DNA of 64,000 bases, taken from NCBI RefSeq assembly GCF_016903815.1, contig NZ_CP069973.1. The stretch is one strand, 5' to 3'. The position numbers are program-made. Shown here in pieces: positions 33,001 to 35,771 of the stretch. The DNA comes from Escherichia coli (lineage in GTDB: Bacteria; Pseudomonadota; Gammaproteobacteria; Enterobacterales; Enterobacteriaceae). Position 1 is the stretch's first letter. Each line of letters begins with the position of its first letter.

Positions 33001-35771
33001 ATACCCACCTCGCCCAGGCGTTAAATCGCAGTTTGTTTGCCATCGGTATTGATAACACCCTGCCGGAAGAGTTCGCCCGCCTGTACCCACGCCTGGTGCG
33101 CACCACCCGCGCGGCGCTGGCCGGATTTGAAAGTGAATACGGCGTCCATCTTTCTGATGAGGAAAGCGGTCTGGTCGCGGTGATTTTTGGTGCCTGGCTA
33201 ATGCAGGAAAACGACCTGCATGAGAAACAGATTATTCTACTGACCGGGAATGATAGCGAGCGAGAAGCGCAGATTGAGCAGCAGCTACGCGAACTAACGT
33301 TACTGCCGCTCAACATTAAACATATGTCGGTAAAGGTATTTTTGCAGACAGGCGCTCCGCGCGGCGCGGCACTGATTATTGCTCCTTATACCATGCCGTT
33401 ACCGCTCTTTTCACCACCGCTGATCTATACGGACCTGACGCTGACAACACATCAACAGGAGCAAATCCGCAAAATGCTCGAATCAGCATGAGGGAACAAC
33501 TTTCGGGCGCAAAAACATTGCCGGAAGCGCCACCAGCGCCATCACCCAGAACACGCCGTGCCCCAGATATTGATACAGGAAACCGGCGAAAACGGTCATG
33601 ATCGCGATACTGCCGCCCATCGCGACGGCAGAGTAAACCGCCTGTAAACGGATGACTTCGCTACCCTGGCGAGCGGCAATATAGCGCATGGCGGCCAGGT
33701 GGCAGACCGTGAAGGTGCCGCAATGCAGAATTTGCACCACTATCAACCACGGCATCGCCGTCGTTGCTCCCATAATGCCCCAGCGCACTACGCCGCAAAT
33801 CGCCGAGATCAACAGCATATCGCGTGCACTACAACGGCGGAAAAGTTTATTACTCAGCGCAAAGATAATGACTTCCGCCACCACGCCCAGCGACCACAAA
33901 TAGCCCACCGCCGAGGCCGAGTAGCCAGCTGCCTGCCAGTAAATGGCGCTAAAACCGTAATAGGCCGCATGCGCCCCCTGCAATAAACAAACGCAGGCCA
34001 GAAAGCGCCAGTTCTGGCGAACCAGCGCCAACCACGCTGACCAACCGGCGCTCTCCTGCTGGCGGCTTGCCCCTTGTGGCTGAATCGTCGGACGGATGAG
34101 AAAGCCGAGCAGCATGGATGCCACGCCCAACGTCAACAGCGCGAGGATCACCCGATAATCAAACATAGTGACCAGTTTGCCCGTCAGCGCCGAGCCAATG
34201 ACAAACGCCACCGAGCCCCACAGTCGCACTTTGCCGTAATCAAGCGGGAACTGCTTTTGCCACGTATTCGCCAGTGCATCGGTCAACGGTACCAGCGGTG
34301 AGAAAAAGAGGTTAAAGCCAATCATCACCAGCATCAGCCACGCTACGTGCGCCCCCGCCCAGAATGCGACAGCAAAGAGAAGTGTCAGCAGTGCCAGCAC
34401 GCGCAAGGCGGAAATCAGGCGAGAAGGATCGCTGACGCGGGGCGCGATGAGCAAACTCCCGAGAAAACGGGCAATCAGACCTGCCCCCAATAACAGGCCG
34501 ATGGTTTCTGGCGTTAAACCAATCCCCTTAAGCCAGACGCTCCAGAAAGGTAGAAAAATGCCGTAACTAAAAAAGTATGTGAAATAGCCGAGCGCCAACC
34601 AGCGCGTGGATTGCAAAACCATGAGTCCCTCCCGTCAGGAGGCGTTAGTCTGGGGTTAATCGAATGTTGGTGCAAGTTGAAAAATAAGAATATTCGAGCC
34701 TGCTTCCCGATGTCTGTAACACCAGTTCACAAGCACTAAAAAACTGCGATCCGCGACGCATGTTGCAAAAATAATGCGTAATTATGCCGTTACGCTTGCC
34801 AAACGTTCCTGCACAATGGCGATGAAATCGCGTAATGCCGGCTTCATCTCCCCTTTCTTCCACGCCATCAGTAAAGCAATGGAAGGCACATTTCCGGCAA
34901 TGGGTCGAAATACCACCTGGCCGGTATTAAAATTATTCATATAACCGGGTATCAAAGTGACGCCCAGCCCCATCCCCACCAGATTCATGGTCACCAGAAT
35001 ATTCGTTGCCACCTGGACGATATTTGGCTGGCTGTTTTCTTGCGCAAACCACGCTTTAACGATCGGCGCAAGCGAACCGGAATACGCTGGATCAGTACTG
35101 ACGAAATTAACGCCATCCAGTTGCGCGGCAGTGATCTCTTTTTCATGTGCTAAAGGGTGATCAACCGGTAACACCACCACTAATGGTTCGTCAAAAAGCT
35201 CCAGATAATCAATCTCCGGGCTATAAACAGGATGGCGCATTAAGCCGACGTCGAGTTCACCACGGCGAATTTTTTCTTCCTGTTCCGTGGTGATTAAACT
35301 CACCAGCTCAATTAAGGTATCTGGCTGTCTGAGACGAAACATCGGTAATACTTTTGGCAGTAAATTCACTTCCGCCGATGGCACAAAGCCAATGGTTAAT
35401 TGTCTGTCTTCCTGAACAATTTTCCGCGCCCGTAATTTGGCATTTTCCGCTTGTTCGAGGATTGCCAGCGCGTCCTGGAGAAAACATTCTCCCGCCGCCG
35501 TCAACGCGACTTTGCGCTTATCCCTCACCAGTAACGGAACACCGACACAGTTTTCAAGATCGCGGATCTGGCTGCTTAACGAAGGCTGTGAGGTATGCAG
35601 TTTTTCCGCCGCACGGGTAAAGTTCAGTGCCTGCGCCACTGCGACGAAATAGCGTAAATGCCGTAGTTCCATCACCTTCCCCTTGTTATCGAAAAAACGT
35701 CTCAGCTGGTAGAAATTAACTATTTCACATATTAGCAACCAACCAGCAACATCCTTATGGCACAAAAATAG

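What the first reader, a model, noticed from the sequence alone, without database searches (positions are those of the whole stretch)
33483..33491. Convergent 9-bp overlap of the csiE and hcaT 3' ends
csiE (+) ends at 33491 and hcaT (-) ends at 33483, so the last codons of each overlap on opposite strands with no room for a terminator. Convergent transcripts must read into each other, which could couple stationary-phase csiE expression to antisense interference with hcaT or the reverse.
Basis: seen in the sequence. Interest (0 to 1): 0.25.

Follow-up and report, generated by a model that had tools for sequence, protein, structure and literature searches.

The report
Terminator-less csiE/hcaT convergent gene overlap
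Two E. coli genes on opposite strands really do share their last 9 bases, but this is an already annotated, fairly common kind of gene packing that is conserved across the enterobacteria and has no demonstrated regulatory role.

Summary
csiE (+) stops at 33489-33491 and hcaT (-) stops at 33483-33485, so the two genes share TCAGCATGA. RefSeq annotates the same 9-bp overlap in MG1655 and in every E. coli record I inspected, and the junction sequence is present in 5424 of 5426 complete genomes.

It is not unusual. A published count gives 58 convergent overlaps in E. coli. In this window 2 of 6 convergent pairs overlap; the other is mltF/tadA.

In 78 other Enterobacteriaceae species, hcaT lies tail-to-tail against csiE with a gap of -9 to +3 in 73. 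The commonest state is -4, so the 9-bp form is one variant of an old zero-spacer junction.

No intrinsic terminator lies near either stop. Published Term-seq puts the csiE mRNA 3' end 47 nt past its stop, at window 33538. That is 56 nt inside antisense hcaT, and it was seen only in LB at OD 2.0. The csiE-hcaT pair is already listed among 165 E. coli "excludons".

Regulatory coupling remains untested. Synonymous sites at the junction show no extra constraint, and hcaT is a standard expression-invariant qPCR reference gene. The most likely reading is genome compaction with factor-dependent termination inside the neighbouring gene. Low interest; already known.

The parts
32211..33491 (+). csiE coding sequence (426 aa, PRD-domain protein, stationary-phase inducible); stop TGA at 33489-33491
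   Evidence: ORF; RefSeq annotation; homologues carry PF00874 and are named CsiE
33483..34622 (-). hcaT coding sequence (379 aa MFS transporter); stop TGA is the reverse complement of 33483-33485
   Evidence: ORF; RefSeq annotation; orthologues are 76-97% identical in 78 species
33483..33491 (.). 9-bp shared stretch TCAGCATGA: CsiE Ser425-Ala426-stop on the + strand, HcaT Ser378-Cys379-stop on the - strand
   Evidence: same layout (TCAnnnTGA) in E. albertii, E. whittamii, C. amalonaticus, Pseudenterobacter and Intestinirhabdus
33492..33538 (+). csiE 3' UTR as mapped by Term-seq. The 3' end at MG1655 2666762 equals the stop +47 nt, which is window 33538. The UTR is antisense to the last ~16 hcaT codons and is not followed by a U-tract.
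   Evidence: Adams et al. 2021 supplementary file 1, LB OD600 2.0 sheet; coordinate conversion. The 45 nt upstream fold at -9.2 kcal/mol with z = -0.29, so there is no unusually stable hairpin.
33492..33881 (+). C-rich, G-poor untranslated RNA downstream of the csiE stop (antisense of the membrane-protein gene). C/G is 1.35-1.47 over the first ~130 nt and up to 2.2 at +234..+312. This is a candidate Rho-loading (rut-like) region; that role is inferred, not shown.
   Evidence: C>G is conserved in 78 orthologous loci with medians of 1.3-1.5. 0 of 78 loci have a hairpin+T-run within 500 nt.
33105..33482 (-). Region an hcaT read-through transcript would cover (antisense csiE). It is G-rich for ~140 nt (C/G 0.4-0.6), then C>G (1.4-1.9) at +180..+310. 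There is no terminator-like site in E. coli, and the 3' end is unmapped.
32177..32177 (+). Approximate csiE transcription start (MG1655 2,665,401, 34 nt upstream of the ATG). The promoter is sigma-S/CRP/H-NS dependent according to the literature.
   Evidence: ROSE paper PMC10301672; sigma-S ChIP-seq peak at csiE, PMC4447067. The position was transferred by offset from the start codon and was not checked for indels.

Best explanation
This is a terminator-free, zero-spacer convergent junction produced by genome compaction. No intergenic element is needed between csiE and hcaT, so the spacer has shrunk until the two stop codons abut or interlock. Only the variable terminal residues of each protein are double-coded. 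Each RNA polymerase therefore has to run into the partner's coding region. For csiE, the steady-state mRNA end lies 47 nt past the stop (shown by published Term-seq). I infer that transcription actually ends further downstream through Rho acting on the untranslated, C-rich antisense-hcaT RNA, followed by 3'-to-5' trimming. I also infer that hcaT read-through runs at least 200 nt into antisense csiE before reaching C-rich sequence. The two transcripts are therefore complementary over at least 56 nt when both are made. Both genes are weakly expressed and nothing at the junction is constrained beyond the proteins, so any antisense or collision effect is probably small and incidental rather than a selected switch.
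For: The overlap is real and fixed in E. coli. In 78 species loci the gap is -4 in 34, -6 in 19, 0 in 10, -9 in 8, and +2 or +3 in 2, so 73 of 78 lie within -9..+3. The exact state drifts between these values, and in other lineages stops have moved to give -17, -22 and -77. Together these fit a neutral floor rather than a fixed functional length. The overlapped codons are the non-conserved tails: CsiE ends ...LES in most genera and ...LESA in Escherichia, and the HcaT tail after RPK(V) varies. Four-fold-site entropy is not reduced at either 3' end: 1.39 for the last 25 hcaT codons against a gene mean of 1.24, and 1.17 against 1.31 for csiE. There is no intrinsic terminator consensus near either stop in E. 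coli. None lies within 500 nt downstream of csiE in any of 78 loci, and the number downstream of hcaT is at or below background. The Term-seq csiE 3' end at +47 has no U-tract and was seen only at OD 2.0. C>G composition downstream matches the published signature of Rho-dependent 3' ends. Convergent overlaps are common: 58 in E. coli and 2 of 6 in this window. hcaT mRNA is among the most invariant in E. coli.
Against: Rho dependence is not shown. The pair does not appear in the bicyclomycin-defined Rho regions of Adams et al., although those were measured at OD 0.5, where csiE is barely expressed. The sequence upstream of the mapped 3' end does not fold better than shuffles (z = -0.29), so the 'protective stem-loop' part of the model is weak. 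Near-zero spacing kept in 94% of species could also reflect selection for obligatory overlap. ExcludonFinder reports that excludon pairs are more syntenic than other neighbours. I did not compare this pair with other convergent pairs in the same genomes.
Confidence: 0.62

Rival explanations
1. It is a functional excludon. The obligatory transcript overlap is selected because sigma-S/cAMP-CRP-driven csiE transcription in stationary phase lowers hcaT expression, or the reverse, through RNA polymerase collision and/or RNase III cleavage of the RNA duplex of at least 56 bp.
For: csiE-hcaT is listed among 165 convergent excludons detected in at least 50% of 58 MG1655 transcriptomes. The csiE 3' end lies inside hcaT and appears only at OD 2.0. 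The zero-spacer junction is retained in 73 of 78 species. The csiE-hcaT pairing is much more conserved than the hcaT-hca cluster linkage. Excludon pairs in general show raised synteny.
Against: There is no reciprocal-expression or RNase III data for this pair. hcaT is one of the most expression-stable genes across growth stages and conditions. There is no synonymous-site constraint at the junction. Overlap length is not conserved, and REP-like insertions of 38 and 89 bp are tolerated. The Term-seq signal is low, about 1.7 thousand reads against about 85-175 thousand for neighbouring entries. With any CDS overlap the 'excludon' call follows almost automatically once both genes have coverage.
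Confidence: 0.22
2. Head-on RNA polymerase collision, rather than Rho, is the main way both transcripts are ended at this terminator-less junction.
For: No intrinsic terminators are present. Collision-assisted bidirectional termination has been described for E. coli convergent genes (title and abstract of bioRxiv 10.1101/2022.10.23.513370).
Against: That mechanism was described for bidirectional hairpin terminators, and none is present here. Both promoters appear weak, so collisions should be rare (inference). A discrete csiE 3' end exists at OD 2.0 in LB, but nothing examined here shows how strongly hcaT was being transcribed in that sample.
Confidence: 0.08
3. It is an annotation or sequence artefact: one of the stops is wrong and the genes do not really overlap.
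For: None found.
Against: Stop codons are fixed by the ORFs. Both ORFs are full length and conserved in 5424 E. coli genomes and 78 other species, with stops in equivalent positions.
Confidence: 0.01

Closest known systems
Short convergent (tail-to-tail) CDS overlaps in prokaryotes (e.g. Lillo & Krakauer 2007)
   Same: Two real genes on opposite strands share a few 3'-terminal bases built around interlocking stop codons. The commonest state in relatives is the classic 4-bp YTAR tetramer. The published origin is stop-codon mutation or drift.
   Different: Nothing essential differs. The E. coli form is 9 bp in the (123:321) phase rather than the 4-bp form, apparently one codon longer than the 6-bp TCATRR form seen in Citrobacter and Salmonella.
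Excludons (overlapping transcription of neighbouring opposite-strand genes; ExcludonFinder map of E. coli, NAR 2025)
   Same: Convergent transcripts overlap, and the pair is explicitly listed in that map.
   Different: The defining functional outcome, mutually exclusive expression with RNase III processing, has not been shown for this pair, and the hcaT expression-stability data argue against a strong effect.
Rho-dependent 3' ends (Dar & Sorek 2018)
   Same: The 3' end lacks a U-tract, lies beyond the stop codon, and has C>G sequence downstream.
   Different: The upstream 45 nt are not unusually structured (z = -0.29). Bicyclomycin sensitivity is unknown.
Bidirectional intrinsic terminators between convergent genes (SEnd-seq work)
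   Same: The genes are convergent and the 3' ends overlap.
   Different: There is no hairpin flanked by A and U tracts, and no intergenic space at all.

Membership tests
Convergent overlapping CDS pair | Two opposite-strand ORFs share 3'-terminal nucleotides | tested here: met
   33483-33491 is shared; the annotation is identical
Convergent overlapping CDS pair | Both ORFs are genuine conserved genes with conserved stop positions | tested here: met
   CsiE is 57-91% and HcaT 76-97% identical in 78 species, with stops within a few nt
Excludon | Transcripts of the two neighbouring genes overlap | tested here: met
   Literature data were located and mapped here: the Term-seq csiE 3' end lies 56 nt inside hcaT, and the pair is listed in the ExcludonFinder table. 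The hcaT 3' end itself is unmapped.
Excludon | Reciprocal (mutually exclusive) expression of the two genes | not testable with these tools
   No expression compendium is available. Indirect evidence against: hcaT is an expression-invariant qPCR reference gene.
Excludon | RNase III-dependent processing of the sense/antisense duplex | not testable with these tools
   The supplements of the ExcludonFinder paper are not held
Bidirectional intrinsic terminator | GC-rich hairpin followed by a U-tract (and preceded by an A-tract) between or next to the convergent stops | tested here: not met
   No site lies downstream of either stop in E. coli. 0 of 78 loci have one downstream of csiE, and 24 of 78 downstream of hcaT, which is at or below background and at non-conserved positions.
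Rho-dependent terminator / trimmed 3' end | 3' end without a U-tract and with a C>G region downstream | tested here: met
   The sequence at 33538 is ...CCAGCG|CCAUCACCCA. C/G is 1.35-2.2 downstream, and this is conserved.
Rho-dependent terminator / trimmed 3' end | Stable protective stem-loop immediately upstream of the 3' end | tested here: inconclusive
   -9.2 kcal/mol, z = -0.29 against shuffles
Rho-dependent terminator / trimmed 3' end | Read-through on bicyclomycin or Rho inhibition | not testable with these tools
   The pair is not in the Adams et al. Rho table, which was measured at OD 0.5; this is uninformative for a stationary-phase gene

The most novel reading that the evidence does not exclude
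The terminator-free csiE/hcaT junction is actively maintained across Enterobacteriaceae as an obligatory excludon. Starvation-induced (sigma-S/cAMP-CRP) transcription of the PRD-domain protein CsiE would tune a backbone MFS transporter. That transporter would be misnamed 'HcaT', because it is linked to csiE rather than to the patchily distributed hca catabolic cluster. The two proteins would then be functionally related.
Probability: 0.12. Interest if true: 0.45.

Novelty: already known. Interest (0 to 1): 0.15.

Why it matters
It matters little as a discovery. The overlap is in the standard annotation, the transcript overlap is already catalogued, and such junctions are common.

There are practical points. 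Any deletion or tagging at either 3' end hits both genes, and the original Keio csiE primer actually truncates hcaT. Constructs should therefore respect the shared 9 bp.

The comparative result adds some context. The junction is an ancient zero-spacer arrangement, and hcaT belongs to the csiE backbone rather than to the hca cluster. This gives the pair some value as a natural test case for how terminator-less convergent genes end transcription.

Tried and rejected
- **Intrinsic terminators inside the partner gene.** The consensus scan and my own scan of 78 orthologous loci found none that are conserved.
- **A conserved embedded RNA element.** Four-fold-site entropy along both genes is not reduced at the 3' ends. 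An Rfam scan of 32000-35000 gave only a chance-level snoRNA hit at E = 0.35.
- **A protective hairpin at the mapped 3' end.** It folds no better than shuffles.
- **Further 3'-end data for hcaT.**
  - The SMRT-Cappable-seq and TERMITe supplements have no entry.
  - The supplements of the Dar & Sorek, Nanopore and ExcludonFinder papers are not held.
  - The SEnd-seq paper is not held.
- **An annotation artefact.** Rejected.

Full report
**Observation**

The window is E. coli chromosome; it is 100% identical to strain 7/2 over the region tested. The csiE ORF on the + strand ends GAA TCA GCA TGA, with its stop at 33489-33491. The hcaT ORF on the - strand (34622..33483) ends CCC TCA TGC TGA, and its stop is the reverse complement of 33483-33485. 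The two genes share 33483-33491 (TCAGCATGA).

The codon boundaries coincide, so each TGA stop is the complement of a TCA serine codon in the other gene. RefSeq annotates the same 9-bp overlap in strain 7/2 and in MG1655 (csiE 2665435..2666715, hcaT 2666707..2667846). It also does so in three of the most divergent E. coli junctions I sampled. The junction sequence is present in 5424 of 5426 complete genomes.

**Is it unusual?**

No. Lillo & Krakauer (PMC2174442) counted 58 convergent CDS overlaps in E. coli and noted that any terminators for such genes must lie within coding sequence.

The six convergent pairs in this window have these gaps:

| Pair | Gap (bp) |
|---|---|
| timP/sseB | +31 |
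| csiE/hcaT | -9 |
| yphA/yphB | +47 |
| yphH/glyA | +63 |
| hmpA/glnB | +44 |
| mltF/tadA | -4 |

**Comparative anatomy**

I aligned CsiE homologues and used the alignment to fetch 80 loci, one per species, across Enterobacteriaceae. In 78 of them an hcaT orthologue (76-97% identity) lies convergent and immediately downstream of csiE. The other two gave no hcaT hit; one of them (L059) ends only about 80 bp past csiE.

The gap distribution is as follows:

| Gap (bp) | Loci | Where found |
|---|---|---|
| -4 (shared YTAR) | 34 | Widest range of genera, so probably ancestral |
| -6 (TCATRR) | 19 | Citrobacter freundii group, Salmonella, Lelliottia and two other loci |
| 0 | 10 | Nine Enterobacter loci and L004 |
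| -9 (TCAnnnTGA) | 8 | Escherichia, C. amalonaticus, Pseudenterobacter, Intestinirhabdus |
| +2, +3 | 1 each | Huaxiibacter chinensis (L040), an Enterobacter sp. MAG (L027) |
| -17, -22, -77 | 1 each | Lineages where stop codons moved |
| +38, +89 | 1 each | REP-like palindromes inserted between the stops |

So 73 of 78 species lie within -9..+3. The 9-bp form looks like the 6-bp form plus one codon. That extra codon adds Ala426 to CsiE, since most genera end ...LES, and adds one residue to the variable HcaT tail.

**Is there anything functional embedded at the junction?**

- The consensus scan finds no intrinsic terminator downstream of either stop.
- My scan of the orthologues found none within 500 nt downstream of csiE in any of 78 loci. 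Only background-level, non-conserved sites lie downstream of hcaT.
- Entropy at four-fold degenerate sites across 74-77 orthologues is not reduced at either 3' end. The last 25 hcaT codons score 1.39 against a gene mean of 1.24, and csiE scores 1.17 against 1.31. Only the 5' ends are constrained.
- Rfam finds nothing in the region.

**Where do the transcripts end?**

Adams et al. 2021 (PMC7815308, supplementary file 1) list one 3' end at MG1655 2666762 (+). It is classed as primary for csiE and antisense to hcaT, with about 1.7 thousand reads. The entry sits in the LB OD600 2.0 sheet only, which fits stationary-phase induction of csiE from its sigma-S/CRP-dependent promoter.

With csiE ending at 2666715, this 3' end is 47 nt past the stop. 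That is window 33538, 56 nt inside the hcaT coding sequence. It has no U-tract. The sequence downstream is C-rich and G-poor, with C/G of 1.35-2.2, and this composition is conserved in orthologues. That matches the published signature of Rho-dependent 3' ends trimmed back by exonucleases (Dar & Sorek). However, the 45 nt upstream are not unusually structured (z = -0.29), and bicyclomycin data for this condition do not exist.

On the other strand, RNA downstream of the hcaT stop is G-rich for about 140 nt and becomes C-rich only at +180..+310. I infer that hcaT read-through extends at least 200 nt into antisense csiE. No dataset I could search maps the hcaT 3' end.

**What is already known?**

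ExcludonFinder (PMC12288877) lists csiE-hcaT among 165 convergent excludons found in at least 50% of 58 MG1655 transcriptomes. The paper gives no pair-specific functional data, and its supplements are not held. The LI-Detector paper records that the original Keio csiE primer removes the hcaT 3' end. The overlap, the transcript overlap and its practical consequence are therefore all in the literature.

**Interpretation**

I favour (0.62) the ordinary reading. No intergenic element is needed here, so deletion bias has collapsed the spacer until the stop codons interlock. Only the dispensable terminal residues are double-coded. Termination is factor-dependent inside the neighbouring gene.

The functional-excludon reading (0.22) is not excluded. 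The junction and the pairing are old and stable, and excludon pairs in general show raised synteny. Several results argue against a strong selected switch:

- The overlap length drifts between species.
- REP-like insertions are tolerated.
- Synonymous sites show no extra constraint.
- The csiE 3'-end signal is low.
- hcaT was chosen as one of the most expression-invariant E. coli genes across growth stages (PMC3110127).

Collision-based termination (0.08) and an annotation artefact (0.01) are minor alternatives.

**Side observation**

hcaR and hcaE sit next to hcaT only in E. coli and six other species loci. In E. albertii, E. whittamii, the E. coli-labelled locus L004 and several Enterobacter species, hcaT is followed directly by yphA. 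The conserved backbone is trmJ-suhB-(yfhR)-csiE-hcaT-yphA, and the hca catabolic cluster is a patchy insert. The assignment of HcaT as the 3-phenylpropionate transporter, which MG1655 still annotates as 'putative', therefore rests mostly on adjacency in E. coli.

**Verdict**

The feature is already known and ordinary. Interest 0.15.

Noticed in passing
window 33483-40025; loci L003-L082: The hcaR-hcaEFCBD cluster is adjacent to hcaT only in E. coli and 6 of 78 other species loci. In E. albertii, E. whittamii, the E. coli-labelled locus L004 and several Enterobacter species, hcaT is followed directly by yphA. hcaT therefore belongs to a conserved trmJ-suhB-csiE-hcaT-yphA backbone. Its naming as the 3-phenylpropionate transporter rests largely on adjacency in E. 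coli.
   Followed up: partly
window ~63996-63999: There is a second convergent CDS overlap in the same window: mltF (+) and tadA (-) share 4 bp. This pair is also in the ExcludonFinder list.
   Followed up: no
L055 ~5237-5274; L057 ~5237-5325: In Cedecea sulfonylureivorans and Dryocola boscaweniae, REP-like palindromic elements are inserted exactly between the csiE and hcaT stops. L057 carries two inverted copies. These give the only sizeable spacers, +38 and +89 bp. The resemblance to REP was judged by eye and not tested.
   Followed up: no
L065 (Kosakonia cowanii), L049, L038: Stop-codon changes extend one or both ORFs, giving 77-, 22- and 17-bp overlaps. This shows the junction moves by stop-codon drift.
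   Followed up: no
L002 (E. coli EC77) 2984-3657: A deletion fuses a 3' fragment of hcaT to a fragment of hcaE, and hcaR is lost. Both remnants are annotated as pseudogenes, and the overlap with csiE is retained.
   Followed up: no
window 31166-32020 (yfhR): yfhR, which lies between suhB and csiE, gave tblastn hits only in Escherichia and three other loci (L041, L049, L076). It is another patchy gene in this backbone.
   Followed up: no
window 34776-34795 (-): A terminator-like hairpin with a T-run sits at the 3' end of hcaR, upstream of hcaT. It suggests that hcaT is transcribed separately from hcaR.
   Followed up: no
window ~34782-34847 (-): The MG1655 annotation carries a small ORF, iroK (b4706), that coincides with the 3' end of hcaR. 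It is not annotated in the strain identical to the window.
   Followed up: no
window 33483-33600 (literature): The original Keio csiE deletion primer lies downstream of the intended site and truncates hcaT, removing TM12. Both correct and incorrect mutants exist in the library (PMC9431181).
   Followed up: yes
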